Assembly: GCF_902652985.1 (NCBI RefSeq)
Contig: NC_047025.1
Span: forward strand, 17,298,001-17,362,000
Source: Pecten maximus
Taxonomy: Eukaryota
Reading direction: 5' to 3'
DNA: 64,000 bases
This document shows positions 878 through 52,200 of the stretch, one piece after another. A model generated the notes under the pieces. It was not told the DNA's origin, ran no database searches, and saw only the letters and a list, made by a program, of their open reading frames with translations. The translations under genes and the position numbers were made by a program. Position 1 is the first letter of the stretch. The number at the start of each line of letters is the position of its first letter.

Positions 878-3800
878 CTTTCTTTACAATCTCGACCTTC
901 GCTGTATCTTTTTTCGCCCGACATCGGTATTTGAAGCAGCCTTCCATCCAGGTTTCCCTGTTCTTAATGCAGTCGCCTTTCCATGGGCAATCTTCCGGGA
1001 ATAAAAAAAAAACACAAGTATATGGTATTGATCAAATATTTATGAGCAATGCGTATATCAAAATGCACAAATCAAATGATCGTAATCCTTTCTTCCCTGT
1101 CTGCTTTTGTGATTCATTTCCTGGCTGCCGATGACTTCCTGGTACAAATGTCCTTACATGGCCCTGGCTGAAGGAGAATTCCTGACACCAGTGTCTTCAC
1201 AAGGCCCTGGCTGCTGGTGGCTTCCTGACACTAGTGTCTTCACATGGCCGTGGCTGCTGGTGGCTTCCTGACACTAGTGTCTTCACAAGGCCCTGGCTGC
1301 TGGTGGCTTCCTGACACTAGTGTCTTCACAAGGCCCTGGCTGCTGGTGGTTTCCTGACACTAGTGTCTTCACAAGGCCCTGGCTGCTGGTGGCTTCCTGA
1401 CACTAGTGTCTTCACAAGGCCCTGGCTGCTGGTGGCTTCCTGACACTAGTGTCTTCACAAGGCCCTGGCTGAAGGAGAATTCCTGACACTAGTGTCTTCA
1501 CAAGGCCCTGGCTGCTGGTGGCTTCCTGACACTAGTGTCTTCACATGGCCGTGGCTGCTGGTGGCTTCCTGACACTAGTGTCTTCACATGACCCTGGCTG
1601 CTGGTGACTTCATGACACCAACACCTGTCTCTTCACATGACCCTTGATACTGGTGACTTCCTGACACTAATGTCCTCATATGGCCCAGGCTTCTAGTGGC
1701 TTCCTGACACTAGTATATTCACATGAACCATTATGCTGGTCCTTACACCAGTTTCTTTACATTGTCTATTGCAAATTCCTCAGCGTTAAGCAAACGACAG
1801 CTTGAATTTTCCCGGTTGATCGGTAGGGAAAATGTGTATTTGTACATGCAATGTTCTAAAGACGTACTCTGAACTGCCTATGTCTTTAATTCTCAAATTT
1901 TCTAGGCAAAAGTATTATGATAATTCACCGAGGTACATAAGCTCACAGGAAATGCTATAAAAACTATATATAAAATATGAAAACAATAAACAAATAAATT
2001 CTTAAAACAACAATGCGAAACCACACGAAGTGAAAAGTGTAAAAATAAAGAATAGAAAATAATAATAAAAGTCTAAAATACCACGTGATATTTTGCCGAG
2101 CATGTTGCACGGTCTCTGCGCTAGCACCAAGACCTGAGACAATGTTACATTCTAGATGAAGTTGACATATGCTGGTTGGTGTGGAAAAGCGAAAGATTGG
2201 TATGAGAGAGTGTTAGATCAACATTATATTACATCATCAAATAAATTGGTTGCAAAATTCGAATTTCCTGGAACTTGTCAACACATTAATCTGCGTCATT
2301 CTCCACGGAGGAATCTCCAGTATCAGCATAACCTCACACGATCCTTCCGCAACAGTGGACAGGTGGACAGGACACCGGTCAGACCGCGAAAACCAACGTC
2401 GTTATTTTAACATGATATTTTGATATCAGTGATAATCATTATAAAACAGGTGCGATTTAATAGTTAATTGCAATTATTTGGTTTTTTAAAGTCATTTTGT
2501 AATGTTCATGGTACATTTTCTTTCGTTAACTAACGGTGGTGCGGTCGATGAGGCAAAACATATGTACCAAACACACATACCCAAACTCCAGATATATACT
2601 GCAATTGTCTAGTAAATTTCTATCATATGATATATATAATATGATATGCGCTTCTCGTCAGAGGCTCGCAAATAAGGGAAAACGAAAACAAGTGTCAAAG
2701 TTTTTATTTGGATGATGGAAACTAATGTCATATGCTATATATATTCTGTTGTTAATCTACTTGTAAACTAAAATTAGTATATATAAAGAATGTAAGCCAC
2801 ATTTTTTACAAAAACAAATTCAGGTATATTTTATCGAAATGGTGGAAACACGATTAAAAAAAAGACACACAAAGACAGAATATGAATTACATAAAGGACA
2901 ACACGTTACCTGTTTATACACAAAGGACAACACGTTACCTGTTATACACAACGGACAGTACGTCACCTGTTTTACACACAAAGGACAACACGTTACCCGT
3001 TTCATACATAAAGGACAACACGTTACCTGTTATACACAAAGGACATCACGTCACTTGTTTTACACACAAAGGACAACACGTTTCCTGTTAACACACAAAG
3101 GACAACACGTTACATGTTGTATACACAAAGGACAACACGTTACCTGTTTTATACACAAAGGACAACACGTTACCTGTTTTATACACAAAGGACAACACGT
3201 TACCTGTTTTATACACAAAGGACAACACGTTACCTGTTTCATACACAAAGGTCAACACGTTATCTATTTTAAACACAAAGGACAACATGTTACCTGTTTT
3301 ATACACAAAGGACAGCACGTTACCTGTTTTATACACAAGTTTGGTTTTCGTCATCCTTTTGTTTATTCTGCACTGAACAGTTTGGCACTCTCCGGCATTC
3401 ACTGTCTGTCCGTCCCTCAGGCACCTATCTCGGAACAGACACTCTGGAAACAAAGGCCAATAACGTCAATGTTGAGATTGAAGTGACTTCTTCACTTAAA
3501 AGGTCACTGATATAATATATACATTACAAAAGCTGAATTCAAAGAAAATAATGAAAAGTGCTTGCACAAAACACAAATATGATCTGTAACAGAGTATATA
3601 TACCGAATAAAGGGAACATCCTAAAACTGTTTTGTCTTTTCTCATGCAACTCCTCATTGATGATCAAACCTCTGACAGTCCAAAGGGGATGGTAAGAAAG
3701 TTAGAAATAATATATACAGATAAAAACCAACAGGCCCACAAGGGGAGATATCTTTACCTTATCGTTCAATCAGTCTACCAAATTTGCCAATTGGATATCT

Positions 3801-4811: not shown

Positions 4812-4866
4812 ATACTTACAGTGAGATTTCTTGACAATTCTCATAATCTGTCTCAGCTTATATACT
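4812..4866 (-). promoter_or_regulatory. Putative TATA box and short 5'UTR exon of the secreted-protein gene
   Basis: Minus-strand TATATAAG at about 4864-4857, donor CT|GTAAGT at about 4819, and acceptor TTTCAG at 4413 just upstream of ATG 4396. Confidence 0.5.
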
Positions 4867-7069
4867 CCGCTCTATCCCATTGTTTAAACTTCGGTTTGAT
4901 TTGTGTACGTCGTCTTCCCTTTCACTGTTCGGTAACATGTGTGCTCTGGATATTGGATTGAATACGTGTTGTCTTTAAACAGATGTATTTGGTTGTCAGC
5001 ACTGACAACTTCATATTTATCAAACGACCTTCCTTGTCTACAAAACTCATTAAGTGTAAGTCGTCGGTAGAAACTGAACTCGGTGACAAACAACTTAAGT
5101 CGATCACGTGTATTTGAGAAAGCGACATTTGTTAAAGTATAATTATGGCAAACAACTCACAACTCCGTGATACAAATATTTATTTTTCAAGTTTTGATAC
5201 TTTAAACCTGTTTTAAACTTACATAAGATATTCGCCTTAATTAAGACATTCTAATTTATTAACTGTATAACGCATTACGATTTGTATATTCTAACTATTA
5301 GTTGAGATTTGGTACGTGTGGTTGATATTTTATTCAATAAAGCATAAAAAAATCCACGTGGATGTATAATTTACGATTTCACTAAGTAAGGCTGAAGAAA
5401 ATAGGCAAGATTTGCAAATCATCACTTGTACTTTGATATAAATTTGGAATTTGACGATATTTGCATATGTAAATACGCTATACACTAAACTGGTCTTCGC
5501 GTGTACAATGTATACATTTATATGATGATACATGACAAAGGCACTAGTCTAAAATACAGATAAACACATGTTTGTTAAGTCGGCAAGGATTTCCAATATT
5601 CCGGTGATTAACGGGAAACTATCTCACCTGGTTATAAAATGTACCTTTCCGAATCACATGCTATGATAGGACACGTTTTATACTAACATGATTACATTAT
5701 GGTATATTTTCATTACAATTGATGATATTAAAATCTATTCTCGAATATAAGATCCCAGAGGAGCCCACTACCGTGTGGACTGGTTCTATGTTAGTTTAAT
5801 ATTCTATGTACATTTGTCCCCCCCCTTCTATCTTAACTATATCAACTTGTTGCATCACACAAGCGTTAGTGACGAAGAACCTACAAATATAATTAGAACA
5901 AATACAGAAACTGTGATAGCAAGCTCCTGTCGACAATTTGGTTTTTAAACAGTCTCCATATTGAACATGCACAATTAGGGGTCAAAGAGCAGACCTCGTC
6001 TGAAATTAGAGGAAGGCAAAATAGACATTCCTTGAGAAATAGCGATAACAAGCTTTTCAAGATTACCGCCTACCAGGTACGTCAAAATTTCAACATTCAA
6101 AATAAGTGACAAAGGGGGAACTTACATTTGTTATAGGGAGATTCTGGTGATACTTTCTTGAGACAAGTAGTAACAGCTCGCAAATTATAGTATCCACGAA
6201 GGCCGCTATTTAACAATGTGTTCCGTTCAGTTTCAAAATATAAAATATGTTTAATTTTGGAGAGGCGACGACGTACTCAAACATTCGATGTGTAAAATTA
6301 ATGATTGCCGCTAGTTGGTCATATTCTTTTTCTTATCAGTCTCAATATTGACCATACATGGATAACAATGTTTCTAGAACAGCATTCCCTTAGAAATAGC
6401 GATATCAAACTTTAACTGTCAAAATCCAACAAGGCACCACGTAAGCTTTCATGTTTTCATCAGACATCCAAATTGCAAGCTCTACTAATGGCCAAGGGAA
6501 ACCTTCAGATGAAATTGCGAAAATGCGTTATATATCTTAAGTACTGGAGTATAGCCTATTTCTAGCACAATATGACATGTTTGTTTGCAAAGCTCTGGCA
6601 TCTATATCGACCATAGACACCAAAAAAGGACAGTTTAATGCTTATATTTACATTCTCCACATATTCGTTTTGTTACTCTTGGCAAATAAAAATTGAGTTA
6701 GCATAAAAATGCCAGTATTCAGCGATTTCGTCAATGGGGTTCGACAAATAGAACAGCCTATTTTTTCAAAATTCATTTGTCACGTGTAGATTGGCAAACA
6801 AAAAAGTGCATTGAAATAATACGAAAAAAACAAAGTCTGTTCAATTCTTTTTATTAATTGTGTAACAATATTGTATAAAATGTGTTTTTGATACTTTTTT
6901 GTTAACATAAAAAACGATTTACGTTAGTTACAAGTAGTTCCGGTGGGTGAATATATTCATGCGCGGCATGGATTGTTGTCACGTTTTGGTTGTCAATTAT
7001 GGTCACATAGACCGCAAATCTTTTTACTAAGTTTATATCGTGGCTTTGCCACCAAAATGTAAATATTTG

Positions 7070-7290
7070 ATGATGTTAGATAATACTTCAAAGCACTCCC
7101 ATAGTCAAATGTCGACGTCAACCGTTCGATGATGTTCAAATAATACATCAAAATACTAACCATAGACAATGTCGACTTCGACGTCAACCGTTCGATGATG
7201 TTCAAGTAATACTTCAAAGCACTCACCATAGTCAAACGGTGACGTCGACGTCAACCATTTGGTGTTGTTAAAAAATAGTTCCAAGCACTG
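7070..7290. repeat. Degenerate ~60-65 bp repeat (3-4 copies) just downstream of the FMO-A stop
   Basis: Recurrent TAATACTTCAAAGCACT...CCATAGTCAAA...GACGTCAACCG. Confidence 0.75.
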
Positions 7291-7329
7291 ATAAGATAAT
7301 CAGATTGATGTAGGACAGTTTTGTATTGT

Positions 7330-10300
7330 TTAAATATCACCATTGATAGTTTCATAAGTATTTAGCCCTGTGATTTTATAGTTTATTGTCTTAAAGTTTA
7401 TAGTGTCTTCAGCGCGTGTTTTAAGAACTGTATCATATAACAATGCAAGAACAGGAGGGATACGCTCGAATCCTGCAAGGTCGGCAAACTCGTTGTAATA
7501 CTGCCATTGAAGGGTGCCCATATGGTGCGCGTGTCGGTCTGGCTTGCCCCTTTCTAACCTACTGCGGAAGTCTTTATCCGTGTCAGCATCCATCTCCTCA
7601 CGAACTGGTAGTTCCACGGTACCGTCTAAAGTCGCAATCACGAACAATACCTGATGATAAATGCTTAAAAATGGACAATCTTTCTTCAGAATGCCAACTA
7701 TCGACAAAGACGGGTATTCCGTGTGAATAAGGTGCTTGTAAAGGGGTACGATACGTTCATTGTCAGTTTTCACGCGACACTCTGGTGACAGGAAAGGGAA
7801 ACTGAACCTATAACCGGTACAGAACACGAGAGCATCGGCTGTTACTTCTTCGTCATTTTCAAATACAACTGTATATTCCGTGACGTGTTTGATTCCTGGT
7901 TTCTGTTCCAGATTATCAGGTAGATATGTCTGTAGTCTTGGTAATCTGTGACTCAGGTAAACCTGGAAACAGATATTAGAATATGACATCCTAATTATAC
8001 CAATCAGCATGTTTATACATGAGTATACAATGTAGTTTAAAGTAAAACAGGGCTCAGCTCCAATAATAAATATCACGCTGATGTCTGAATGTCAATGTGT
8101 CGGAAAGCTTGGCCTTTAGATACTAAAAATTGGCGTTCCATGAGGATCTTTTTATCGACAGTTTACGCTGCAAATTTAATTGAGTTTTACTTAAGCAATG
8201 GATTAGGGAACGTTGAAAAGGCATTCCTTTTCGTTTATTTATCAACACATATGTGCTTGCCCTATGTATTTTTTCTCATCCAATTTCCCATTTGAGGGCC
8301 TGCCATTATATTTACCTGAGGTGTTTTAATGAAGCGGAAGACGAATATTTGGTGTTCTCATCTCAGATTTTCCTAGATTCTTTGTGTGAATGATTCATTT
8401 GTCTTAATTTTGCCATTGCTTCACCTACACGTATTTTGAGCTCAATTTGTGGATTTGTATATATTTCATATGTCACTTGTAGTGTTTCTTACCCTTCAAT
8501 TAGTGACATATCATAACCTCCCCTAAGTAATGTAGACAAGGAAATCTTGTCAATTGGAACAACATCTGTGACATAACTCAGGTACCTGGCGGCAAACGTA
8601 TGTAATGCTGGGTGTATGATACACAAAGGGAACTGTACCTTTTCCACAACAGACGACATATCCAGACTGATGTCCTGGCCAGACGAGGAAGCACCCAGAC
8701 ACACCACACACTTTCCCTCAAATTCGGACGGATAACGGTAGTCATGACTGTGCAATACTTTACCACGGAATAGATCTAGTCCGGTAATAGCTGGTATAAG
8801 TGGTACAGAGAACTGACTAAAAACACGAAAGTTTAAAAACTTTACTTACTAGGTATAGCTACTGACGACTTACACAAGACTTCAATAGATTAAATAGGAA
8901 GTTGGTATATCTTAAATGAATCATTCGACCAAGTTAACGTTACTCTATAAAGGACTAACTTCATTTGATGTTAAGATCAAAAAGGTAACTTGAATTATTA
9001 TGAATTTATGGTTATAAATTCTACAATTTGGCCTCATCGCAATCATCGTCTGCACGGAAGACGCATCCCCAAGAAGCTCAGAGCAAAGTTTCTATCACAA
9101 CACAATAACTCGTACACACTTCATGATTAATCTTTACATTTGATTTTCAATAAAACGATTAAGTTTTTGAAGTAACAGATGTCATCTGGTACCAATGAAT
9201 AGTATTTGATTATAAACAAAAATGTCGTCAGAAATCCAGAAATGTCAGAATGAGAACGAATCCGTGGGATGTATACAGCCAATATACAGAACAAAGTTAA
9301 TTTCAAGACGTCAAGTATACCTCGTATGGACATGGAATGGAGCATAACACACTTACCCATTACAAACCATAACAGCATCAAACGTTTCTGTTGTAGAAGT
9401 CAAATCAGAGTCTATCAGGGTCTTGTATGTCACCTCCCATGTAATCGTGTCGGAGGACTTCTGAGGGTGAACCAATTTCACTTTTGTTGAGAACTGAAAT
9501 TATACGTACTGCTAATTCTATAAATTTGAATATGTTTGCTTCATGAGTTATTCTTTTGGGACTTGTAATAAGCTCTGGGACTTGTAATAAGCTCTGGCCA
9601 ATTTGATCATTTACTGCTGTTTCTAATTATGACCATGACCCTGAGGCAATGTTCATATTCAGAACAGTTAACAAAGACATGTACTGTCCTTATATTTCAC
9701 CTTTAGATTTTATTGACGGTGGCTTGTTTTTAACAATGAAAAATATGATATACCCTAAAAACCTTAATTTAAGGACACAGATTATTCAAAAACAAAAAGA
9801 ATACTGACAAAATAACAAAACCATAATTCAAACTCCAAATCGATAAGACGAGGACAAAATATAAACCAAAACATAGATTTGTATTTAGACCCCTGAAAAA
9901 AAGTACAAGGAGAGTAAGACCAGTTAACCCGGAAGAGTAAGCGTCTTCTGCTTTGTTGAAGACTCCCGCCATACATATCTAGGTCACGACGACACCCGTC
10001 ATACAGATCTAGGTCAAATCCGGGTTAAGCCACAATCTCAAAGGAAAGAAGAGTTTGGAAGACCATAATGAAAAAGCCGTCTCAATCTTACATAAAACGT
10101 AACCAGCAGGAACAATGTACAACTAAACTGTATAACAAGCGTGATTATGTTTATTTCCAAATCGTAATTGTTTCCATTCATAGATAATAACATCCCCTAC
10201 CTTGTGTTTATAAGTCCCTGTTCATTCGATATCCAACGACTTCTATTATCGCAATGATCTTGACGGACGTCGACTTCTGACATAAACTAATGACAGGGGT

Positions 10301-12323
10301 TCCGGGGTAGCAGGTTTATGAAGGCCATTGAGAGGTTGGCGACATCTTTATCTAATTCAGAAACATTTTATTTCCCTGTGCGATATGAATTCAAACGTGT
10401 TCACTGCTCGTCGATAAGCTTTGTGGTTCCATTTCTCCTTTTCCGTGCAAATCTATATTTTGTCCATAGCTTGCCGTCTTTTTGTAACTTTTTTTATTCA
10501 AAATTTGCTTGCTAGCATGTAGTCCTAGTTTCCTCTGGCCCTGACACCATGCCTGGTGTTACACTAAACATTGTGTCATGGCCAGAGGAACTCGGGCTAG
10601 CTAGCATGTACAAATTCTCTGTTTTTAGAGGTATTCTGTTGAGATGAATTGTGTTTTACAATGTAACATATCAATATCAATGTTCCCAATTAAGGGATTA
10701 TATATTTCTAGTGGTTTGTCTGAAAATATTTTCTAAACGTGTTTTTTCAGTTTTAAAATAAATGATTCTATCAACATAACCAAATAAGTCAATAAAGATT
10801 GTAATGCATACTAACCTTTATATACTTCAACAAATCAAAACAATCTGCATAACTTTCGAGGTATTCTAACACATCTTCATGTCGAATAAAAGATGGTAGA
10901 TCAGCCCGGAACGGGAAATCAGGGAACGCCATCAGTTCCTTTGGAAGATTCGTCCTGATGAAAAAAAGTCAAAGTTAAATGCAGAAGGGTGGGGGAGGGG
11001 GATGGTGGTGGAGACTTGGAGGAGGAGGAGGAGGAGGAGGAGGAAGGTGGTGATGTTGGGGGACGTGGAGGAGCGGGAAGGCTGTGGTGGAACTGGGGTC
11101 TTGAAGGAGGGGGGCGTGGAGGGACGTGGATGAAGGGGAAGGTGGGTGGACGTAGGGACGTGGTGGTGGTGGTGGAGGGTGGGGGGGGGGTAGACGTAGG
11201 GACGTGGTGGGGAGGGGGGTAGACGTAGGGACTTGGTGGGGGGTAGACGTAGGGACTTGGTGGGGGGGGTAGACGTAGGGACTCTGTGGGGGTAGACGTA
11301 GGGACGTGGGGGGTTAGACGTAGGGACGTGGTGGGAGGGGGGTAGACGTAGGGACGTGGTGGTGGTGGGGGGGTAGACGTAGGGACGTGGTGGGAGGGGG
11401 TAGACGTAGGGACGTGGTGGGGGGGTTAGACGTAGGGACGTGGTGGTGGGGGGGTAGACGTAGGGACGTGGTGGGAGGGGGTAGACGTAGGGACGTGGTG
11501 GGGGGTTAGACGTAGGGACGTGGTGGTGGGGGGGGGGTAGACGTAGGGACGTGGTGGGAGGGGGTAGACGTAGGGACGTGGTGGGGGGGTTAGACGTAGG
11601 GACGTGGTGGGAGGAGGGGGGGTAGACGTAGGGACGTGGTGGGGAGGTGGTGGGTGGTGGCGCAAATTCAACAGTGCGACATGGCCGAACTCAGCCAACA
11701 AGATAGTTTCATATTCCAACACGCTAAGCTATATGTACCTCCTCTTAGGTAGAGAGGTCGTTTACAGGTAGACCGCTGACGGATGTCACGGATGCCTGAT
11801 ACTAAACATCAACGGCAGTTACACCGCGAAGCTACGAAACACCGTTTAATGGATCTCAACTGGCGAGAGAAGTGCGATATTTTACGTTCCTGTCCTTTTG
11901 AGCTACGATAACTTTCTTGGTGCAATACAGGATCGACATTGCTTCAGAAATACATCGATGTCAGTTTGGCTTGACAAACATTGTTTTTTTTAAATAAATT
12001 TTATTGATATAATGGGAAGACACGGCAGAAGTTTGTCTTCGAAGTAATCCGTTCAAACAAAAGCATCATGGTAAGCACAGGGTCGTTATATCGCTATAAG
12101 TAACAACTATAACTGTACTCACTTCAGGTTTCTGTACATACTGGAGTGTATGGGGAGGCCATGGTCATCCACGCCAGTCTGGTCAGTATAAATCCATGTA
12201 CCACCAAGACGACTATTCTGTTCGAAGCACACGACATGGAACTTTTGTTGTCTAGTGGTGAGATGCCGCAAGAGCACATAGACCTGCCGCCCCGGCTCCT
12301 ATCACGGCCACCCGGATCGTCAT
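7330..12323 (-). CDS. Flavin-containing monooxygenase paralog A (class B flavoprotein monooxygenase, ~428 aa); one extra base in exon 1 as assembled
   Basis: Exons 12323-12123, 10954-10816, 9493-9357, 8816-8639 and 7962-7330. Motifs: VAVIGAGAAG (FAD), GGTW, MYRNLKTNLPKE, FRGKVLHSHDYR (FMO signature), GASSSG (NADPH) and FCTGY. Exon 1 is 201 nt versus 200 nt in paralog B. Confidence 0.92.
10520..10599. mobile_element. 80-bp palindromic mini-MITE with TAG...CTA ends and 9-bp TSD (AcademH-like)
   Basis: Arms TAGTCCTAGTTTCCTCTGGCCCTGACAC / GTGTCATGGCCAGAGGAACTCGGGCTA. Flanking direct repeat GCTAGCATG at 10511-10519 and 10600-10608. Confidence 0.7.
10986..11660. repeat. G-rich minisatellite (GGGGGTAGACGTAGGGACGTGGTGG, variable G-runs) plus (GGA)n in FMO-A intron 1
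   Basis: Visible array with a constant TAGACGTAGGGACGTGG core. Confidence 0.95.
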
Positions 12324-13395
12324 CACTACAGATTCACAGTAGTTCCCTTGATATACCTATACATCACTGATAAATATACCTATACATCACTTATAAAGTC
12401 ACGTGACCAACATAAATACCTGTTTTATATGCCCACGGTCGTTTGCTACACATACTTCACAAATCTAGATAAGGGTAGCGCAATCGACAGTGGGTTCATA
12501 CGGACAATATACTTCTATGTGAAAAACAAATGCATTGACCCTTCAAATATTGACAAGGTTAGTATAGCAGAATATTGGGGTTAAATGGAGCATGAACCTC
12601 TGCTGAGACTAAGAAAAGGACTAGGTAAAGCACAGGTCCTAGCCTCGTCTGTCAATACATCCAAATATATATTGGATGTGTGGGTAAAGAGAGGGATAGA
12701 ATTTAGTATTAGGTTATTTACTAGTGTCACGTTTACCGACGCGTATCTATGACATATTAAAAGAATCGTTCAGAATCGTCTTTTTTACACATGTATATAC
12801 GATACTTATTTTATGATACATTAAATGAATTCATGGAATGAAATGAAATGGGACCATTACATGTCCCCCAAACCACCCCGACACCAGTGTTTGTGACGTC
12901 ATACTACACCTATATACCAATTTTCATCAAACTCGAACAATATCTAAATGTTGACCAATCAGAGAAGATTAAGCGGATCTAAAACAACATGCCCCCAAAA
13001 TTTGTTTGGGAAACATAATGATACACATAACCAAACAAGGGAAAAAATACATAAATCAATAGTTTATTTCCAAAAATTGACACATGCGGTGTACACCAGT
13101 GTTTGTGTTGGAATGTGGAAAGCCTCTGAACCGCAAGGCCATGTTAAAGAGTTTCAAACAGCTTGAGACTCGGACACTAGATAGTCCAGGCCATGGGAAG
13201 ACGTCGTTATCTAATTCGGAAATATTACATTTCTCTGTGCGATATGAAGTCAAATGTATTCCTGGCTCTATGAGGAGGCCGGTCACATTTCATTTGACAA
13301 TACGCTTATCTAACCGCAGAGGAGCGTAACAATATGAAAGTGTTTGATGTAGTGACAGACTTTCATGTGGGTTTATGTTCCTGTAGAAAAAAGAC

Positions 13396-15650: not shown

Positions 15651-18600
15651 TCACGTTGTCGAACTGTCCTCATTAATAGTTACATATGTATTTGGTCCTG
15701 TAAGTTGATAGTTCAACGACTTATAGTGTACAATGTCCTTAACTCGTGTTACATGTACTGTATCGTATAACTCTTCTACAACAGGAGGAATACGCTCGAA
15801 TCCTGCAAGGTCGGCAATCTCGTCATTATAACGCCATTGAAGGGTGCCCATATGGTGCGCGTGTCGTTCTGGCATGCCCCTTTCTAACCTATTCCGGAAG
15901 TCCTTATCCGTGTCAGCATCCATCTCCTCACGTCCTGGTAGTGTCATACTGCCGTCTAAGGTTGCAATCACAAACAGAACCTGATTGTGAAAGTTTGGAA
16001 AAGGACAAATGGTCTTCAGAATTCCAAGTAAAGACAAAGTTGGGTATTCCGTGTGAACAAGGTGCTTGTAAAGGGGTACGATACGTTCATGTTCAGTTTT
16101 CACCTGACACTCTGGTGACAGGAAAGGGAAACTGAACCTATAACCGGTACAGAACATAATAGCGTCCACTGTCACTTCTTCGTCATCTTCAAACACAACT
16201 GTTTGTTCCGTGACGTGTTTTATTCCTGGTTTCTGCACAAGATTATCGGGGAGATATGTCTGTAAATCAGGTTTTCTGTGACACATGTAAACCTGAAACA
16301 GATATACCAATATGTCACCTAGATTGTAAAGTTACATGTCATATTGTTATTAAGATGATCATCTTGATTTTCCATTATAATAATCAGCAGAGTTATCGTT
16401 TTTATAACTTTAATATGTCACGGGGTGTAAATATATCGATTAACTTGTTAAAGGTAAAAAGGACTTCCCCAGTACATATTTTATCATTACCCCTTGTGGT
16501 TCCGTTGTCATAAGCCCGGTTCTCAAATTGAGGCCGTGATATATCTTTGATTTGATCTAGATTGGTTGGCGTCGTCAGTGAAGCAAATTAGTAGAACATT
16601 TTTAACTATTCCCCTTGACGAAATTTTCAAGAAAAGGTGAAGGATTCCTTCGCTCATATTTTGGCCTAGTTTCATTTATTTTGAATTCACATTACGTCTT
16701 TGTTCAAACCTCAGTATTCTCTTGTAAGTTCAATGTCATTCAGTTAGTGATACATATTATAGCATCCCTAGTGTTTTTTAACGAAAACAAGAAAATCTCG
16801 ACACTCGGAAATAATATCCGTTACCCGATTCGGAATGCCAGGTCCTATAGTTGAGATTGATAATGTTACTATCACTAAGAAGTGTTCCATCATCAAATTG
16901 TTATGAGGAGAACGTGGCAGATTATTATGTAATACACTGAGAAAGTACCTGTTTAGCAGCAGACGACACGTCTACACTGATGTCTTGACCAGACGCCGCA
17001 GCACCCAGACACACAACACGCTGTCCCTCAAATTCGGACGGATAACGGTAATCATGACTGTGCAATACTTTACCACGGAAAAGATCTAGTCCGGGAATCG
17101 CTGGTATAAGTGGTACAGAGTAATGGCTGAAAAACAAGAGATATTTGTTATTTTTATGTAACAAAGGCCCTGCAAATCCTTCGATTTGAGAATGTGACTT
17201 AACCTAGGATTTGACCGAGATTTGCCTGTTTGGTGTCATCGATGAAACAGTTTTCTAAAAAGAACCAAATCATATCCACTTCCTGATAATACAATGATTG
17301 TTTACCGTATATCTATGTTATAGTGTTACTGTGATTTATTACATTTTTACAAGTGAAATATTAAAAATAATTTTCTTGATATTTTTCAATAGTTAAAAAT
17401 ATCACTTGTTCTGATTTGTCCAATCAAAGCACTGCTTACAAATGACAATGGGAGAACTTTAAAGCTTCACCGGTAGACTTTGCTATAAAATGTAATACAT
17501 GTAAACAGAATATCCAACAGTATCTTCAGTAATACCAAATATGTTTCACTTATGTGGCTAACATTTTGATATTTTAAAATATATTTTCAAAATAAAGTAT
17601 TAGAATATTGGTCCCATTCTTGAAATGTATTTGGCAGTACTGAAGTCACTGTTAGATACCCCCTACATAAGCTTAAAGTGTAAAGTACAACGCCTAATAT
17701 TTACAGTTGCGTTGCATTGTCACTAAATGAAGCTTGTTATTAAGCTTTGTTATTAATTTTCGATAATTACGCAGATGAATAGACTTGTGCATCAATAATA
17801 GGCGGGCACGTTACGCACGTGTCAAAGTATAACTGCGCAGTGGTAAATCATGATTTTATGTAACACGATCAAAGAAATATTTATCAAAATATTCATTAAT
17901 GATGAATTGTTAATTCACAAAATTAAAAGGTAATGTCTTTTTTTTTTTTTTTTTTTTATATTTATAATGTAATAGTTTAATAAGTATTATAAAACAGGCT
18001 GATGGCATTGTTTTCTTTCTGTACTAATTTGTTTCGTGTCTGTCGTCAATGACACCGCGGCAGTGTCATCTAGTGTTTTCCAATTAATTTGGCTGTTTTA
18101 CTAAACTGACCGCTGTTCCTACCACGTGCATAATGTGATTTTTTCTGTTTTTAAATGTCATTGCGATCAAGTGCAAAAAGAAAGATTTCTTTATTTTTTG
18201 TAACTGTATATTGCTTGTTGCGAGCAATCCTTAAACTGACGTTTGTACTTACCCATTACAAACCATGACAGCATCAAACGTTTCTGTGACAGGCGTTAAA
18301 TCAGAGTCTGTCAGGGTCTTGTATGTCACCTGCCATGTAACATTGCTGTGTGGTTTCTGGGGGTGAACCGAATTAACTGTCGTGGAAAACTGAAATTTGA
18401 TATATGGTATTTTTATCAATTCAGTTAAATATTGTGTTTTGTTTGTAAGTCGACCTCCATTCCTCAAACAAGGCATAATGTACTCGAGTTTCGACCACTA
18501 AATCACTTAGTTAATTTGAATTCTTGAGCCGAGTATGGTGGGGAAATGTTGATCTTTGACTGTTTATTCTAATTAAGAAAACGATCTAGAGGTCATATCA

Positions 18601-37930: not shown

Positions 37931-39803
37931 TACAGGTGTATTAGTGTCTGTGTATTTAGTGTACAGGTGTAGTAATGTTTGTGTATTTAGTGTACAGGTG
38001 TAGTAGTGTCTGTATTTAGTGTACAGGTGTAGTAATGTTTGTGTATTTAGTGTACAGGTGTAGTAGTGTCTGTATTTAGTGTACAGGTGTAGTAGTGTCT
38101 GTATTTAGTGTACAGGTGTAGTAGTGTCTGTGTATTTAGTATACAGGTGTAGTAATGTCTGTATTTAGTGTTTGTGTATTTAGTGTACAGGTGTATACGT
38201 AGTAGTGTCTGTATTTAGTGTACAGGTGTAGTGGTGTTTGTGTATTGAGTGTACAGGTGTAGTAGTGTCTGTGTATTTAGTGTACAGGTGTAGTAATGTC
38301 TGTATTTAGTGTACAGGTGTAGTAGTGTCTGTATTTAGTGTACAGGTGTAGTAATGTCTGTATTTAGTGTACAGGTGTAGTAGTGTCTGTATTTAGTGTA
38401 TAGGTGTAGTAGTGTCTGTATTTAGTGTACAGGTGTAGTAGTGTCTGTGTATTTAGTGTACAGGTGTAGTAATGTCTGTATTTAGTGTACAGGTGTAGTA
38501 GTGTTTGTGTATTTAGTGTACAGGTGTAGTAGTATCTGTATTTAGTGTACAGGTGTAGTAGTGTCTGTATTTAGTGTACAGGTGTAGTAGTGTTTGTGTA
38601 TTTAGTGTACAGGTGTAGTAGTGCCTGTATTTAGTGTACAGGTGTAGTAGTGTCTGTATTTAGTGTACAGGTGTAGTAGTGTTTGTGTATTTAGTGTACA
38701 GGTGTAGTAATGTCTGTATTTAGTGTACAGGTGTATTAGTGTTTGTGTATTTAGTGTACAGGTGTATTAGTGTTTGTGTATTTAGTGTACAGGTGTAGTA
38801 GTGTCTGTATTTAGTGTACAGGTGTAGTAATGTCTGTATTTAGTGTACAGGTGTAGTAGTGTCTGTGTATTTAGTGTACAGGTGTAGTAGTGTCTGTATT
38901 TAGTGTACAGGTGTAGTAATGTCTGTATTTAGTGTACAGGTGTAGTAGTGTCTGTGTATTTAGTGTACAGGTGTAGTAGTGTCTGTATTTAGTGTACAGG
39001 TGTAGTAATGTCTGTATTTAGTGTACAGGTGTAGTAGTGTCTGTATTTAGTGTACAGGTGTAGTAATGTCTGTATTTAGTGTACAGGTGTAGTAATGTCT
39101 GTGTATTTAGTGTACAGGTGTAGTAGTGTCTGTGTATTTAGTGTACAGGTGTAGTAGTGTCTGTGTATTTAGTGTACAGGTGTAGTAGTGTCTGTATTTA
39201 GTGTACAGGTGTAGTAGTGTCTGTATTTAATGTACAGGTGTAGTAGTGTCTGTATTTAGTGTACAGGTGTAGTAGTGTCTGTGTATTTAGTGTACAGGTG
39301 TAGTAATGTCTGTATTTAGTGTACAGGTGTAGTAGTGTCTGTATTTAGTGTACAGGTGTAGTAATGTCTGTATTTAGTGTACAGGTGTAGTAGTGTCTGT
39401 GTATTTAATGTACATGTGTAGTAGTGTCTGTATTTAGTGTACAGGTGTAGTATTGTTTGTGTATTTAGTGTACAGGTGTAGTAATGTCTGTATTTAGTGT
39501 ACAGGTGTAGTAATGTCTGTATTTAGTGTACAGGTGTAGTAATGTCTGTATTTAATGTACAGGTGTAGTAGTGTTTGTGTATTTAGTGTACAGGTGTAGT
39601 AATGTCTGTATTTAGTGTACAGGTGTAGTAATGTCTGTATTTAGTGTACAGGTGTAGTAATGTCTGTATTTAGTGTACAGGTGTAGTAGTGTGTGTATTT
39701 AGTGTACAGGTGTAGTAGTGTTTGTGTATTTAGTGTACAGGTGTAGTAGTGTCTGTATTTAGTGTACAGGTGTAGTAGTGTTTATGTATTCAGTGTACAG
39801 GTG
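37931..39803. repeat. 29/31-bp satellite (GTATTTAGTGTACAGGTGTAGTAGTGTCT), about 60 copies
   Basis: Visible homogeneous array downstream of the TPX2 stop. Confidence 0.97.
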
Positions 39804-40246
39804 TTGTATATAGTATCGTTTTGATGTAGATATAAAAAGGCATATTTTAATTGCATTTCCCCATTGGTTAATGTTACTTTGAATGAATACATTATTTACA
39901 GAACTAGAATCCTCATACATAGCTACCTTATTGATGACTTCCATCCACTTTTACATTTACCATAGCTGTTATAACAAAAGGTAAACCACTTCATTTTGGT
40001 CACACTGATTTCGTGTTAATCACTAGAATCATTACAAATTTAAATTGTCTCCAAACAACATCCTCCTCACAATAGCAAAGTCAAACATACACAAATGAAT
40101 CCTACAGGTGTTATTTATGAAACTGTGTACACAGTGAAAATAAAGTACTTTATAGCCGATTACTGCCTATCTGGTAGCATGATAATTTGATTTTAACAAT
40201 GCTTGGTCAAACCATAATGGCTTCACCATATATATATGTAACCTTA

Positions 40247-43200
40247 TCACACACGGACACTGCTACGCAGGCGACTGTCTGTGGATAATTTGGGCGACAT
40301 TGGAACTGTTACTGGTCTTTCACTTGGTAAAACTTCCACAGTCTTAAAACGTTTCACAGGTTGAGATTTGGGCACCATTTCTGCTCTTAGTTTTGCAATT
40401 GCGAGTTTTTCTTGTTCCTCCTGTCGTCTTTCCCGTTGACGTTTCAATGCTTCGGCCTCTGCCTCTTGGGCTTTCCTTCGTTGATCATATGCTTCTCGTG
40501 TTTTGGATCTCTTGTCTGTGTTTAATTCAAAGTCATTGACATCTGTCAAGCAGGAAAAAAAAAGATTTTCTTATTTCAATGTTTAAATGAAACAACAAAA
40601 GACACATCTTGGGAATAAGAAACATGTGATATTATGACAAATGAGAAGCTGAACTTTGGCAGTATTACATACAGGAGTATACTTCACAAGGAGAGATGTC
40701 AGCTTGTTATCATATGACCTGAAGTCAGTATTACATATAGGATTATACTTTACAAGGAGAGATGTCAGCTTGTTATCATATGACCTGTAGTCAGTATTGC
40801 ATACAGGAGTATACTTGACAAGGAGAGATGTCAGCTTGTTATCCTATGACCTGTAGTCAGTATTACATACAGGATTATACTTCACAAGGAGAGATGTCAG
40901 CTTGTTATCCTATGACCTGTAGTCAGTATTACATACAGGATTATACTTCATAAGGAGAGATGTCAGCTTGTTATCCTATGACCTGTAGTCAGTATATTAC
41001 TGGTGTGTATCACATCTAATTTCCAATTATATTACCCCATCATATCAGCACTCATTGGTTATAGACAGAACATGATTCTGAAGGACCTGGACATGGTTAT
41101 GAAAATCAAGGTTTGCCTAGGACCTGGACATGGTTATGAAAATCAAGGTTTGCCTATGTATATTTGAATGTACAGTAATCACCTGTTAGGGGTTTGAGCG
41201 ACTTGGCTGGTATAAACGGTTTCTTTATCAGGACATCACTGCTGGTTGCCTTAAATGTAGCTTGTTCCCTCTGTTGTCGTAACTCCTCCTCAATCTGTAA
41301 TATATTATAATATAAACTCAGTAACCAAGTCTAATGAATGTATTCCAATACTCCATTCAACATTATCAGGAAATTCATTTTTTATTTTATCCTAAACAAG
41401 AATTTTCAGAAGACAACATACTTAGAGCAACAAGATTGAGTGGGTTGAAATACAGAATTAGTTGTTTAAAAGTAGGTCAAAGGTCAGTCAAGGTCAGCAG
41501 GTGTGCAAATATTGTACCAAGAGAATGGTCTTGTCACAAGGAACACACATGTCAACCGAAGCTGAGTCCTCATTAGTATTGACACAACTCTGTTTTATAA
41601 AAAAAATTCTAACCAAGCAAACCTCAGTAACAGATACAATATACTATGACCAACTACAGTCCATGGTGAGGCAATATTTAAGCAGTGAACACAGGAACAA
41701 AGTGATCTGACACTGAACACAAGGACTAAGTGAAAAAACAATAAACAAAAAGACAAAGTAAGTGATATAACAATGAACACAAGAACAAAGTGATAAACAA
41801 TGGGAAAAAATCTAACAATGGAAACAAGGACAAAGTGATTTAACAATGGACACAAGGACAAAGTGATTTAACAATGGACACAAGGACAAAGTGATACATC
41901 AATGGACACAAGGACAAAGTGATCTAACAATAGACACAAGGACAAAGTGATACATCAATGAACACAAGGACAAAGTGATATATCAATGGACACAAGGACA
42001 AAGTGATCTAACAATGGACACAAGGACAAAGTGATGTAACAATGAACACAAGGACAAAGTGATCTAACAATGAACACAAGGACAAAGTGATATAACAATG
42101 GACACAAGGACAAAGTGATATAACAATGGACACAAGGACAAAGTGATCTAACAATGGACACAAGGACAAAGTGATATATCAATGAACACAAGGACAAAGT
42201 GATATATCAATGGACACAAGGACAAAGTGATCTAACAATGAACACAACGACAAAGTGATATATCAATGGACACAAGGACAAAGTGATATATCAATGAACA
42301 CAAGGACAAAGTGATCTAACAATGAACACAAGGACAAAGTGATATATCAATGAACACAAGGACAAAGTGATATATCAATGAACACAAGGACAAAGTGATC
42401 TAACAATGAACACAAGGACAAAGTGATCTAACAATGGACACAAGGACAAAGTGATCTAACAATGGACACAAGGAAAAAGTGATCTAGCAATGGACACAAG
42501 GACAAAGTGATCTAACAATGGACACAAGGACAAAGTGATCTAACAATGGACACAAGGACAAAGTGATCTAACAATGAACACAAGGACAAAGTGATTTAAC
42601 AATGGACACAAGGACAAAGTGATATAACAATGGACACAAGGACAAAGTGATATATCAATGAATACAAGGACAAAGTGATCTAACAATGAACACAAGGACA
42701 AAGTGATCTAACAATAGACACAAGGACAAAGTGATATATCAATGAACACAGGGACAAAGTGATATATCAATGAACACAAGGACAAAGTGATCTAACAATG
42801 AACACAAGGACAAAGTGATATATCAATGGACACAAGGACAAAGTGATATATCAATGGACACAAGGACAAAGTGATATATCAATGGACACAAGGACAGTGA
42901 TATATCAATGAACACAAGGACAAAGTGATATATCAATGGACACGAGGACAAAGTGATATATCAATGGACACAAGGACAAAGTGATATATCAATGAACACA
43001 AGGACAAAGTGATATATCAATGGACACGAGGACAAAGTGATATATCAATGAACACAAGGACAAAGTGATATATCAATGAACACAAGGACAAAGTGATATA
43101 TCAATGGACACAAGGACAAAGTGATATATCAATGGACACAAGGACAAAGTGATATATCAATGGACACAAGGACAAAGTGATATATCAATGAACACAAGGA

Positions 43201-46200
43201 CAAAGTGATATATCAATGGACACAAGGGAAAGTGTCTAAAAACGAACATACTGCCATATTTTTAAGTTGGTGAAATAAACGCAAATAAATGAACATCAGA
43301 CCAAGAGACGTACATATACCTTACGACTCCATTCCTCTGCCCGCTTGGCTCCTCTACTGTCATTGTCAAAGTGGAAGGGTTGTGGCATAGTGGGCAGTTT
43401 TGTTTGTTTTTGGGGAAGTGTATCAAATGTCTGGCTGGGACATCCTTGAGCCTGAAATTCTCGTGCCTGAATTGAAAAAAATGCTATATTTATATTGGAA
43501 AAAAAAATTTTAAAAATAGTTTGGATAATACAAGAGTATAATGATGACATGAGTGATGTATTATGAAGATCAGGGGCTCGATACAAGCCTAAACATATGT
43601 TGGTGTGCTTCATTTCCACATTTCATACAAGTTGCAAAAGAAAACAGATGAACAATGCATTTTACTCTTTTCTCTTCCTCCAGTATTTCCTTGATTTTTT
43701 CTTCCTTCTTTACTTTAACACATTGATCCCTTTCCTCAAACGTAAAAGGCTCTGGAACTGTGCTCTTGTGACCTAGTTTTGGCTGGAACGGTACTCCTGC
43801 ATGAGGAATTGGGTTAGCCTTGACCTTCTGAGGTTCATTCTACAACAGAGCAAATTCTCACAATTACTGATCATATATTTAACTGATTCTTACATATTTA
43901 GATCAGAACCACAAACAAACTAAACAGAAGTTTTTATGTCCTTACTGCTCAACTATTATTTTCTTCAAAGCATACAACTCTCATTTTCTGCTATCATTGA
44001 AAGTTAATAAAAAAAGTAATGAATACAAACATTTCACATATAGTATGTAATTTTAGCACCAAAATTGTTGCCAAATCACGATCCAAGACCTAACAATTGA
44101 TGTTTCACAAAGTGTATAACAATTACAAGGGACAATTCAACAAACTGAAGAAATTGAAAATCAGTCAAATAACAAAACATTTTTGCTTTGACACGCACAT
44201 ACTTTTTTTTGCTTAAATTACATCAATTAAATTGAGATTTTATATAAAGATGGTACCTGAGACTCCTCCAACTCTGAAGTTATTCGTACTCGATTCTTCA
44301 AGGCAAATGCTGGTGATTTAGGAATCGTTCGGGCCAACACTTTAGCTGGTTTAATTCCCTGTAATTAATTGAACATGATGATTAGGGACTCCTTAATTGA
44401 TAGCAGTAAATGATAACATATATTTTATTTAATAATAGATGTAATCATTGAAGAAAGATATTAAAGGTAGCTTTTGTAGGTGTTGCATGTTGTGAAACTA
44501 TTAAAGAGTTGTCTCCCTTCTGATCAGGAAACTTGTTAAACAGCACATACATATTAGCTGTGCAAACATACCTTACAGAGAAAGTAAGAAAAATGTATCA
44601 TGATCGGTTTGTTTAAATAATTGATAAAACAGGATGGTGGAAAAAATAATTTACCTCAGAGTACCCAGGGTCAAATTGATATTTTGAGCACTTTAACTTT
44701 AACTCGAGGCCATGAACTGGTGTCCTTAAACTTATTCCTTGTGATTTGTGGCTGACCAAGTACTTGTCAGCAGTCTGATTTTAGAGACATAGCCATTTTA
44801 CCAAAACACGCCACAAACAATAGACTTGTGTAAGTGGTCTGTTGGGAAATAGGGCATTTTAATTATGTATCATATTACAATATTGCTTTGATAAATTAAA
44901 AGTAAAATGGTGTTATACTTTATGAAGCTGACAAGTTAATGAAGCCATTGCATGTTCTCACCACTGGGCCTTCTAGTATCTTTTTAGGTGCTGGTTTGGC
45001 GTGAAACTCATATTTCTCTTCTTCAGTAGAACTGTCTTGTGCACGCCTTTCGGCAGCAGTTAGGTGGAACTCCTCTGGATGTGTTAAAGGTTTTGATGGG
45101 ACTTTCCTCACACCTGTGTTTGGGTTCGTTAAGATCCTCTCATTCACAGGATGTGCTTTAAATTGATTCCTGATAATCAGAATCAATCAAATAATATAAT
45201 AATCTAAAGCACTTAACAAGATAATGTTTTTGTTAATGGAAGATAATTGGCCAATAGGTATTGATTTAGTTATATAAAGTCAACTTTGAAAATAACAAAC
45301 TTGGGAACACAAAGCAATATTTGAGACACGATTTGCACAATTATGTTTATTCAATATGTATTTCATTACTGACATAATGAATTGTGAATTAATAAAATTG
45401 CTATAAACAAAGTGGTTCCCTGCTACCGTACTTGTAGTAATGTGATTATCACTGTAAAATACAAATTACTCTTAGCTAGTCCAGAATTTTTTTCGTTTTG
45501 TTTTGTTAATTTGTTTGTTCTTATATCAAATATTTGATTCTGGAATAACAAACTTTAGAAATAGCGTTGTGTTTTTGGTAACCCATGTACTATCTTTGAC
45601 AACTACAGTCAAACTTTGATGTTTCGAAGTTCAGGGGACTAACAGAAAAACTTCGAAACAGCGGGACTTCGAATTATTCATGGTTGACAATAGATCGATG
45701 TTTTCTTGATAATGACCATATATGTTAACGTTACATGTCCTCAGTGTCTTCCTGTCGATTGTCAGGCTCACATCGAAAAGTTTAGTTAATTTATACCTCA
45801 AACACAACAAAATAAAAATACCTTTCATTAATTATACCTAAGCATTTTATTAATTAAACAAACTATGTATCGGTTATAAAACACTTATATCGCGTTTAAC
45901 AGATAAAGCATAAGAAGTACAATACACACTGACGTAAGTCGTTAGGCTTTTCTGCTAAAGACACGTGCGTTTACGTTATGTGCATATAAAATACGGAATG
46001 CTGATAGCTTGGAGAATGCATGATTGAATGACAAATAATCGATTTACTTGGATATTTATATATAAGTTTGAAACGTGACACTTTAAATGTGTTTAAAATT
46101 GGTCTGCTTGTTTTACAGTTCCGTAAAATTTACTCACCGACCGCTGGTTTCAATGGCGGCAGAGATTATCAGAGACGACTACCGAAATGTTTTACCGGAT

Positions 46201-49200: not shown

Positions 49201-52200
49201 GTCCTTAAAACCCCTATAAACCAATTTTCAAAGAAATTAAACAATATCTTTATTTTGACCAATCAGAAGCTTCCATGTGGTTACTATGGCAGCCAATCCC
49301 ATACAGTTGAATTCGCAGTCCCCTAATACCCCTATATACAAATTTTCATCAAAATTGAATAATATTTGAAATTATCTTTATAATAATTACTATAATAGCA
49401 GCTGCTGAAATGCCCAATGACATAAATACCCAACAATTAATAACAAGTACTAACAGATGTCTTAGTTGTAGTGCTAGATCGAAGAGTTTCCACAAAGTCC
49501 CTGTCTTTGCTCTCACTGCGGGTCTCCATTGGGTGTGCAGATTTAATGCGACTGTCAGTCTGAAACTGGAATCCCTGAGGCTTAGTTGGTAATTTGGTGG
49601 CAACAACAGGTTGATTGGCTGAGCCTGTCATGGCTTTCTTGTACGACTCCTGGGCTAGCTTGCGTTTTTTAGCCAACTCATTTCTCATTAAAGCAATGGT
49701 TTCTAGTTCTCTCTCCTCTGCCTTCTTGTACTGCTCTCCATTTACTTTTGTTACAGGTTTCCTCCTTTAAATAAAGGACAATATACAACAATAAGAAATG
49801 CTACATGAATTACCTATAAATCACCATTAGAACATGGGGAATCGTTCATGGCTATTGTACCTGCACAATAACCTGTTTAACCACAAGTTATTCATAAAAG
49901 TCAGAGTGATTGGGAGTGACCCAGAGGGAGTACAACATTAGAAATACTGATTATTAATATTAGAACATCATATTTCGATAGTTATACGACCTGAACTTAC
50001 TTCATGAATGTTGGTGTGTTGGGAAATGTTAGCTTTGGCATCTTGGAAGCTGGAGCCGTATGGTCTTCCTTTGTATCAGAGCTATTTGAGTTCAACCTCT
50101 GGCGTGTTTGTCTGTCTGAGGAGTTGGCACGTCCAACAGATTGCCCACGTGAATGATTTCTTTTTAAGTTATTACTAGAATCAAAAGATGAACCTGATAT
50201 GTTGTTTAATGTTTGACTGGTAGACCTCTTCATGGAATTGGTTCTCTTCAAGGTATTGTTCGACTTTCCATCCAGTGAATTTGAAAGATTAGTGTTGTCT
50301 GCAGATCGCCTTAAAGAGCTTGATCGTTTCAGTGATGTTGACCTACCCCTCAGCTCTGGATTTTGAACAGACTTTGTTTCCTCCGCCCTGAAACATAAAC
50401 CTAATTGTGAAGCTATCACAAGTTGTAGTAAATCAACCACAAACTTACTGATAAAAACTAAACAATATACCAATCTACCAACAAGTAATTAAGGGTACTA
50501 GTTGAATCTGTTTCAAGTTTAATAAATATTGGTAGGGAATTCAAATCACTGATACTGTATTGGCCTACCCATTTGTTAGTTGTAATAGTCAGTGTTATTT
50601 ACACACCGATACTGTATTGGCCTACCCATTTGTTAGTTGTAATAGTCAGTGTTATCTACACTGATACTCTATTTGCCTACCCATTTGTTAGTTGTAATAG
50701 TCAGTGTTATTTACACTGATACTGTATTGGCCTACCCATTTGTTAGTTGTAATAGTCAGTGTTATTTACACACCGATACTGTATTGGCCTACCCATTTGT
50801 TAGTTGTAATAGTCAGTGTTATTTACACTGATACTGTATTGGCCTACCCATTTGTTAGTTGTAATAGTCAGTGTTATTTACACTGATACTGTATTTGCCT
50901 ACCCATTTGTTAGTTGTAATAGTCAGTGTTATTTACACTGATACTGTATTGGCCTACCCATTTGTTAGTTGTAATAGTCAGTGCTATTTACACTGATACT
51001 GTATTTGCCTACCCATTTGTTAGTTGTAATAGTCAGTGTTATTTACACTGATACTGTATTGGCCTACCCATTTGTTAGTTGTAATAGTCAGTGTTATTTA
51101 CACACCGATACTGTATTGGCCTACCCATTTGTTAGTTGTAATAGTCAGTGTTATTTACACTCTGATACTCTATTTGCCTACCCATTTGTTGGTTGTAATA
51201 GTCAGTGTTATTTACACTCTGATACTCTATTTGCCTACCCATTTGTTAGTTGTAATAGTCAGTGTTATTTACACTGATACTGTATTTGCCTACCCATTTG
51301 TTAGTTGTAATAGTCAGTGTTATTTACACTGATACTGTATTGGCCTACCCATTTGTTAGTTGTAATAGTCAGTGTTATTTACACTCTGATACTCTATTTG
51401 CCTACCCATTTGTTGGTTGTTTCCTGATTCTAGCTGGTTGAGATTTGGTGTTGTTCTTTGAAGTCTGTGATGGTTCCTTCTTGCCCTTTGTCCTCCATTG
51501 AGCCAGATCAGTACATATGTTTTTGGTAACTACTGGTTCAGATGTGGCAGTAGTATTCTCTGATTTATGAAATAAAGTTTCAGTTGGACTGAATATCTGG
51601 TATTTAACAACTTAATACTATTAAATATAGTTTTTGATAAAATTTTAATTGCACTAATTTAATACATGTTTTCTATGCCAAAGATATTTATAACTTCACT
51701 ATATATACAAATTCACAGGTCAAGCCATAGTACTTCAAGAGTATACATACTTCTCCAGGCTGGTGCATGTTTTGATACTACCTTCAACACACTAGCAAGT
51801 AAAATTCTATTTTCTCATAAGAAAATATGTAAAAATAAAGATAAATCAGATTGACAAGATTATACATCTAATTTAACAGATTGAAATACTTACCATCAAT
51901 TAAATTGCGGTTGTATAAAACTTAGCAGAATCACATCGAATTACCCAAATAAAATTATCAATATAATAAAATTGCTTTTAGTATTAACTTCAACAAGAAT
52001 ATGTACAAAAATGTACTTGAAATTTGTGATTTACCATACAATCGTGTACTTGACAAAATTATAAGCATAATGACTAATAATAGGCAGGGACTGTGATCAA
52101 GGTAACCCTCAGAATGATATTCAAACTTTTTATATCGGAATTCCACCTGGGAACAGAGAGACCTCCATGTCTCCGCTATAGACAGTACAGTAAGAAAGTA

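What the first reader, a model, noticed from the sequence alone, without database searches (positions are those of the whole stretch)
2890..51417. Recurrent rule: intronic minisatellites seeded from exon/5' splice-site junctions (4 cases in 3 genes)
Seen: arrays at 2890-3339 (secreted gene), 26998-28082 and 29045-31099 (PSMG2) and 50548-51417 (TPX2) are unrelated to each other in sequence. Yet each begins at or near a donor site, and its unit resembles that junction. The arrays extend into the intron and leave the exon intact. Inference: either expansion is biased to donors (for example transcription/splicing-coupled R-loop slippage), or only junction duplications that leave the first donor usable are tolerated. 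Either way the spliceosome must choose the first of up to ~60 look-alike donors.
Basis: partly seen in the sequence, partly recalled or inferred. Interest (0 to 1): 0.7.

Follow-up and report, generated by a model that had tools for sequence, protein, structure and literature searches.

The report
Scallop splice-junction minisatellites, donor-biased
In this scallop, short DNA pieces spanning the end of an exon have been copied many times into the next intron at about one in 22 sampled splice donors (one in 60 acceptors), yet the transcripts examined use the original signal; this is a known kind of repeat that likely comes from a very repeat-prone genome more than from splicing itself, and one of the four reported cases is instead a dispersed, likely mobile repeat.

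Summary
Three of four arrays are real junction duplications ('mirage' minisatellites, known from amphioxus and human F7). Arrays 2888-3338 and 50547-51420 begin 15 nt inside the exon; 28997-31098 is a diverged, locus-specific junction copy. RNA contigs or source proteins show the first donor is used. The 69-bp array 26996-28082 is not junction-seeded: it belongs to a dispersed family with a shared flank; only ~100 nt of decayed copies before it are junction-derived. The rule is not donor-only: array 1-510 ends on an acceptor. In about 800 exons elsewhere in the genome, 36/799 donors and 13/797 acceptors lie in an array's terminal unit (OR 2.8). Intronic decoy sites show the same skew (2.2% vs 1.0%), so most of the donor bias is compositional. 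Real donors still exceed decoys 2.1-fold (CI 1.4-3.2), unexplained. This scan reported mirages in this genome before (four notes); the donor/acceptor/decoy count is the new part.

The parts
1..510 (-). 20-bp array (continues ~1.1 kb left of the window) ending exactly at the acceptor of the next exon of the secreted gene: acceptor-side mirage
875..991 (-). exon of the secreted cysteine-rich gene (P0004) that receives the splice from donor 3323; its 3' end is approximate
2888..3338 (-). array 1: 30 bp x15, 15 exon nt + 15 intron nt per unit; locus-specific; 12 of 14 extra copies keep GT; unit in frame and stop-free for the first copies
3324..3443 (-). exon of the secreted gene; first donor (GT at 3323) used
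   Evidence: (X16 loose end = 964-991; X11 piece ends at 3324)
26775..26893 (+). PSMG2 (PAC2) exon ending ...VQLQG, donor GTGAGC at 26894
26894..26995 (+). decayed junction duplicates (best copy 30/39 nt identical to exon end + donor)
   Evidence: p=0.0005 vs 2000 random windows
26996..28082 (+). array 2: 69 bp x15.8, member of a dispersed repeat family, not junction-seeded; 1 of 15 copies has GT
28083..28300 (+). 3' flank shared with other loci of the 69-bp family (likely the body of a mobile element)
   Evidence: matches in 5 of 9 other loci
28754..28960 (+). PSMG2 exon ending ...KSLMEE, donor GTAAGA at 28961
28997..31098 (+). array 3: 34 bp x63, diverged copy of exon end + donor, ~58 strong donor-like sites, locus-specific
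50547..51420 (-). array 4: 55 bp x15.7, first unit holds 15 exon nt + donor; 15/15 copies keep an equally strong donor; locus-specific
51406..51559 (-). TPX2 exon; first donor (GT at 51405) spliced to the exon starting at 50387
   Evidence: 4 of 4 runs; PF06886 in last exon
41816..43234 (-). counter-example: 28-bp array starting ~85 nt after a TPX2 donor with no likeness to it
   Evidence: p=0.72

Best explanation
Three of the four arrays are tandem copies of their own exon-intron junction that lie in the intron and are spliced out from the first donor, and they likely arise as ordinary local 25-75 bp duplications in a genome that breeds minisatellites almost everywhere. Inferred steps: (1) duplication and slippage favour G-rich words (AGGT, GGTG, GTAG) and avoid T-runs, which makes donor-like sequence on either strand about twice as likely as acceptor-like sequence to seed an array; (2) selection removes arrays inside coding exons but tolerates those extending into the intron, because the exon-proximal site wins (5'-to-3' priority or exon definition, as shown for human F7); (3) a further ~2-fold excess at real junctions probably reflects the exon-edge setting (chromatin, methylation, protection from deletion) and need not be donor-specific. 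The copies have no demonstrated function. The fourth array is a dispersed 69-bp repeat, likely mobile, that landed behind a small decayed junction duplication.
For: Array density: 70 arrays in 200 kb (45% of bases) next to the window and 277 in 1.12 Mb of gene loci. First-donor use: 4/4 RNA-type contig sets for TPX2; X16 loose end and X11 piece end for the secreted gene; source proteins P0001, P0002 and P0004. Donors 36/799 vs acceptors 13/797; decoy donors 84/3821 vs decoy acceptors 46/4686; ratio of odds ratios 1.25, CI 0.6-2.6. Decoy rates equal on sense and antisense strands, 2.1% and 2.3%. Unit GC 39.5% vs intron 34.7%, and word bias. No tandem repeat wholly inside 399 Pfam-hit exons (71.7 kb). 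GT columns no more conserved than other columns, 0.956 vs 0.956, and copies equal to or weaker than the real donor. Dispersed family.
Against: Real donors still exceed motif- and GC-matched decoys about 2-fold (OR 2.1, CI 1.4-3.2; GC-matched 1.95). For acceptors the excess is uncertain: 1.7, CI 0.8-3.2, or 2.6 against antisense decoys only. A donor-specific component is therefore not excluded, and step 3 is untested. Contigs drop rare isoforms, so exclusive first-donor use is not shown. PSMG2 junctions rest on source proteins, not on reads laid here. The sample is conserved enzyme families, and exon calls are computational.
Confidence: 0.65

Rival explanations
1. Splicing- or transcription-coupled mutation: U1/spliceosome-linked pausing, R-loops or nicks at real 5' splice sites raise the local duplication rate.
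For: Real donors 2.1x over decoy donors, p=5e-4. Array edges pile up within 60 nt of donors, then fall to or below background. Two separate exon sets agree: 20/387 and 16/394.
Against: Acceptors show a similar pile-up within 60 nt (6.3/10 kb vs ~2.6) and 2.6x over antisense decoys. Antisense decoy donors are as enriched as sense ones. The four arrays share no GC skew (-0.27, -0.29, +0.74, -0.03 on +) and units have no excess hairpin potential. Held-out set: 0 of 18 donors.
Confidence: 0.2
2. Pure tolerance filter: duplications are uniform; donor copies are harmless while acceptor copies are purged because an upstream AG gets used.
For: Acceptors are only 1.2x over random intron positions against 4.9x for donors. 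No arrays inside exons.
Against: Tolerance alone cannot lift donors above the neutral rate. Acceptor mirages keep AG in 66/76 copies and are not rarer than decoy acceptors. A frame (multiple-of-3) signal in acceptor units did not replicate: 6/8, then 2/5.
Confidence: 0.08
3. Selected function: extra donors are kept as U1 landing pads that aid exon definition or protect introns from premature cleavage.
For: 369 of 389 copies in 22 donor arrays keep GT.
Against: That retention equals other columns. Copies are on average weaker than the real donor (p=0.002). Older arrays drift away from the junction (array 3, decayed copies at 26894-26995).
Confidence: 0.07

Closest known systems
Amphioxus 'mirage' minisatellites (Adh3, globins BflGb6/BflGb9, TnC, PGBD5); PMC3087553 passages, PMC3902484 one passage; the original Adh3 paper PMC117041 not held, seen only as cited
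   Same: [quoted passage not shown]
   Different: A bivalve, not a cephalochordate; here counted on ~800 exons with decoy controls (4.5% of donors, 1.6% of acceptors); length instability not tested here
Human F7 intron 7 37-bp VNTR; PMC1557585, abstract and Discussion read
   Same: First unit spans the exon-intron junction; 5-9 identical donors; only the most upstream is used (oriented scanning)
   Different: Here up to ~58 copies; function of the copies as donors not tested
Internal tandem repeats at exon-intron boundaries of human duplicated genes; PMC2812944 passages
   Same: ~30-bp minisatellites at boundaries
   Different: There they create alternative splicing and new introns; none seen here
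Bivalve mobile elements carrying internal tandem repeats (Helentron-borne arrays of Crassostrea gigas PMC7492417; DTC84 MITE PMC3879986); search listing and abstract start only
   Same: Array 2: short arrays of one unit at many loci with a shared flank
   Different: Only one shared flank found, 5' ends variable; termini, target site and class not determined

Membership tests
mirage minisatellite | repeat unit spans an exon-intron boundary of its own gene | tested here: met
   arrays 1 and 4 directly; array 3 as a diverged copy (p=0.005)
mirage minisatellite | unit is locus-specific | tested here: met
   arrays 1, 3, 4: only own locus, or one 69-76% look-alike locus; the tool warns that no match does not prove rarity
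mirage minisatellite | copies keep splice signals yet normal mRNA is made from the authentic site | tested here: met
   rare isoforms not visible in contigs
mirage minisatellite | length instability between alleles or somatic cells | not tested
   no reads laid across the arrays
mirage minisatellite (array 2, 26996-28082) | unit derived locally from the junction | tested here: not met
   same 69-bp unit at 80-92% identity at about 38 other places among 40 candidates scored of 173; shared 3' flank
F7-type oriented scanning | downstream copies are functional donors that are activated when the first is mutated | not testable with these tools
   needs minigenes
Helentron/MITE with internal repeats (array 2) | dispersed copies with conserved flanking modules | tested here: inconclusive
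   3' flank shared in 5 of 9 loci, no shared 5' flank
Helentron/MITE with internal repeats (array 2) | diagnostic termini, subterminal inverted repeats, target-site pattern | not tested
   not examined

The most novel reading that the evidence does not exclude
Real splice junctions are mutational hotspots of short tandem duplication in this animal: transcription or splicing machinery doubles the birth rate of minisatellites at 5' splice sites, leaving about one intron in 22, likely thousands genome-wide, with a battery of live decoy donors. That would be a splicing-to-DNA mutational feedback and a genome-scale natural test of first-donor priority and of intron gain by duplication.
Probability: 0.2. 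Interest if true: 0.72.

Novelty: new member of a known kind. Interest (0 to 1): 0.38.

Why it matters
The structure itself is known and harmless to the genes examined. What is useful is the scale and the control. About 4.5% of sampled donors and 1.6% of acceptors carry such arrays, so this genome likely holds thousands of natural F7-like constructs. With long RNA reads they could measure how strictly the spliceosome prefers the first of 2-60 near-identical donors; in-frame, stop-free units like array 1 are free of the nonsense-decay bias. The unexplained 2-fold excess at real donors over matched decoys is a small, testable lead on whether gene activity shapes where minisatellites are born. 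I found no genome-wide donor/acceptor count in the held library; most subscription papers are not held.

Tried and rejected
(1) Array 2 as junction-seeded: rejected. Family units from 9 other loci also resemble the PSMG2 junction weakly (p 0.02-0.23, local unit 0.005), so chance is likely; homology-guided landing is not excluded. (2) Acceptor units being multiples of 3 (6/8, or 10/13 with near cases): post hoc, most carry in-frame stops, and it did not replicate (2/5 spanning, 4/11 near). (3) Junction likeness of other window arrays (1120, 11179, 32112, 40660, 41816, and 1-510 against its donor): none, p 0.33-1.0; five of the ten donor windows there were centred 1-3 nt off. (4) Hairpin potential of units: no excess, z -0.08 vs -0.03. 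(5) Microhomology origin: no excess of 3-10 nt overhangs in 110 clean arrays; excess at 0-3 nt, but TRF rounds copy number, so this is weak. (6) GC content alone predicts only ~1.2x for donor windows. (7) Near-donor arrays (1-60 nt) resemble the junction in 5/17, near-acceptor ones in 5/14, and far arrays resemble their own flank in 43/304, so decayed edges are general. (8) PF00501 hits were single long exons and were not used. Runs X6 and X8 gave no cover of the secreted gene, which shows nothing. Pfam gave the secreted protein only sub-threshold Fn1-like hits.

Full report
Setting. The window is G000:C11:17298001-17362000 of a 918-Mb genome. Proteins matching its exons at 98-100% are named by their source as Pecten maximus. 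It holds a secreted cysteine-rich gene (P0004, 276 aa, only sub-threshold Fn1-like Pfam hits), PSMG2 (PF09754) and TPX2 (PF06886 in the last exon). Two FMO-like genes and a CIAPIN1-like gene are named from recalled motifs, not from a call.

The four arrays. TRF finds all four. Array 1 (2888-3338) and array 4 (50547-51420) begin 15 nt inside the exon, so unit 1 is the junction; 12 of 14 and 15 of 15 further copies keep GT. Array 3 (28997-31098) starts 36 nt after the donor; its unit aligns across exon end and donor (p=0.005 against 316 other units on both strands) and offers 58 further GT sites scoring above 4, most as strong as the real one. These three are locus-specific in genome searches, with the tool's caveat on sensitivity. 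Array 2 (26996-28082) scored p=0.006 against its junction, but the same 69-bp unit occurs at 80-92% identity at about 38 other places among the 40 candidates scored of 173 (my count from the listed rows, 40 rows not listed). Five of nine other loci read share its 3' flank, and none shares a 5' flank. It is a dispersed, probably mobile repeat, and only 1 of its 15 copies has GT. The ~100 nt between donor and array do hold a true decayed junction copy (30/39 nt, p=0.0005). Six other array/donor pairs in the window show no likeness.

Which donor is used. For TPX2, contigs of 4 of 4 runs (four studies, RNA guessed by the tool) stop at 51405 with a loose end equal to 50358-50387: first donor to next acceptor. 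For the secreted gene, 2 of 4 runs cover the exon; both pieces end at 3324, and X16 (on record as RNA) shows a loose end equal to 964-991; P0004 reads ...LVYKT-DCPW across it. For PSMG2, P0001 and the Ylistrum protein P0002 join at the first donors of both exons; no reads were laid there. Contigs cannot show rare isoforms. Array 1's unit is in frame and stop-free for the first copies, so nonsense decay would not hide downstream use there.

Not donor-only. The 20-bp array at 1-510 continues left of the window and ends exactly on the acceptor of the next exon; that exon in turn carries a 39-bp x6.5 donor array.

Genome sample. The genome is very rich in minisatellites: 70 arrays (period >=10, >=3 copies, >=100 nt) in the next 200 kb, 45% of bases; 277 in 1.12 Mb of gene loci. 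I took exon-level Pfam hits for kinesin, CCT, myosin, kinase, DEAD, ALDH and AAA. I dropped hits on unplaced contigs, hits over 420 nt, 13 low-ranking DEAD rows that looked like repeated elements, cores under 20 codons and all PF00501 hits. This left 399 exons, with 387 donors and 384 acceptors scoring above 3. 20/387 donors lie in an array's first unit and 8/384 acceptors in a last unit (p=0.03); one of the 8 was called one unit early, and its period is about 34 by eye, not 177. A second set of 394 ab initio sense exons in the same loci (25 antisense calls at that threshold) gave 16 and 5. A held-out set gave 0/18 and 0/19. Pooled: 36/799 vs 13/797, OR 2.8, CI 1.5-5.9. The window's 2 strictly spanning arrays at about 37 donors (my count) fit this rate.

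Controls. Random intron positions lie in a terminal unit 0.95-1.3% of the time, so donors are 4.9x and acceptors 1.2x. Intronic decoys with splice-like motifs behave differently: donor-like 84/3821 (2.1% sense, 2.3% antisense), acceptor-like 46/4686. Units are richer in GC (39.5 vs 34.7%) and in GGGT, AGGT, GTAG and GGTG, and poorer in TTTT and ATTT. Against decoys, real donors are 2.1x (CI 1.4-3.2; GC-matched 1.95) and acceptors 1.7x (CI 0.8-3.2; 2.6x against antisense only). The donor/acceptor asymmetry left over is 1.25 (CI 0.6-2.6). Array edges cluster within 60 nt of both junction types. No repeat lies wholly inside the 399 exons, though HMM detection favours intact exons. GT is kept in 369/389 copies of 22 donor arrays (20 sampled plus arrays 1 and 4), no better than other columns, and copies are equal or weaker than the real donor. 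An unknown share of background arrays are dispersed elements like array 2; that would make the junction excess an underestimate.

Mechanism. Shown: junction-spanning units, first-site use in the main transcript, the rates above. Inferred: ordinary local duplication with a preference for G-rich words, purging inside exons, tolerance in introns through exon-proximal priority, and an unexplained 2-fold exon-edge excess. A splicing-coupled mutational bias remains possible (0.2).

Prior knowledge. These are 'mirages', described in amphioxus at both boundaries with normal splicing (PMC3087553 passages; PMC3902484 passage), and equivalent to human F7 IVS7, where the most upstream donor is chosen (PMC1557585 abstract and Discussion). 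PMC2812944 (passages) covers human boundary repeats; PMC10078293 (passages) was not relevant. No supplements were read. Earlier notes of this scan report four such cases in this genome and about one in 25 sites; these are unchecked AI notes. My sample agrees on frequency but shows more than chance at donors.

Verdict. Real and general, but known; one case misassigned; donor bias mostly compositional; new member of a known kind, interest 0.38.

Noticed in passing
window 37931-39808: 29-bp x63 array that starts at a strong acceptor-like site on + (score 11.8) and runs downstream of it, between the PSMG2 and TPX2 stop codons; no exon is known there.
   Followed up: partly
L383:8557-8809 and 8918-10000 (just left of the window): One exon of the secreted gene is flanked by an acceptor mirage (20 bp) and a donor mirage (39 bp x6.5); the gene has three mirages in all.
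   Followed up: yes
window 26996-28300: Dispersed 69-bp repeat element with a shared ~200-nt 3' flank and ragged 5' ends; at least ~38 other places, 173 candidates; class undetermined.
   Followed up: partly
window 7227-7489 joined to 4820-4945: An X11 contig splices (CT..AC) a stretch overlapping the 3' end of the FMO-like gene to the secreted gene's exons: a distant first exon or read-through.
   Followed up: no
window 11179-11651: G-rich intronic array (GC skew +0.59 in that kb) in the first intron of the FMO-like gene; reads as proline-rich on the minus strand; no donor likeness.
   Followed up: partly
window 7400-12360 and 15770-21660: Two tandem FMO-like paralogs (name from recalled motifs) with the same exon layout; only one has the intron-1 array.
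   Followed up: no
G000:C11:17362001-17562000 (L031-L050): 45% of 200 kb is tandem arrays, one of 9.2 kb (period 129 row); shared families in the sample mostly have 140-170 bp units.
   Followed up: partly
G000:C12:28894309-28894635 (-) and C18:1784131/1738369: One kinase exon has both a donor and an acceptor mirage; kinesin loci on C18 carry several acceptor mirages.
   Followed up: no
window 56780-57650: Decayed reverse-transcriptase-like stretch (recalled motif) in TPX2 intron 1; described only.
   Followed up: no
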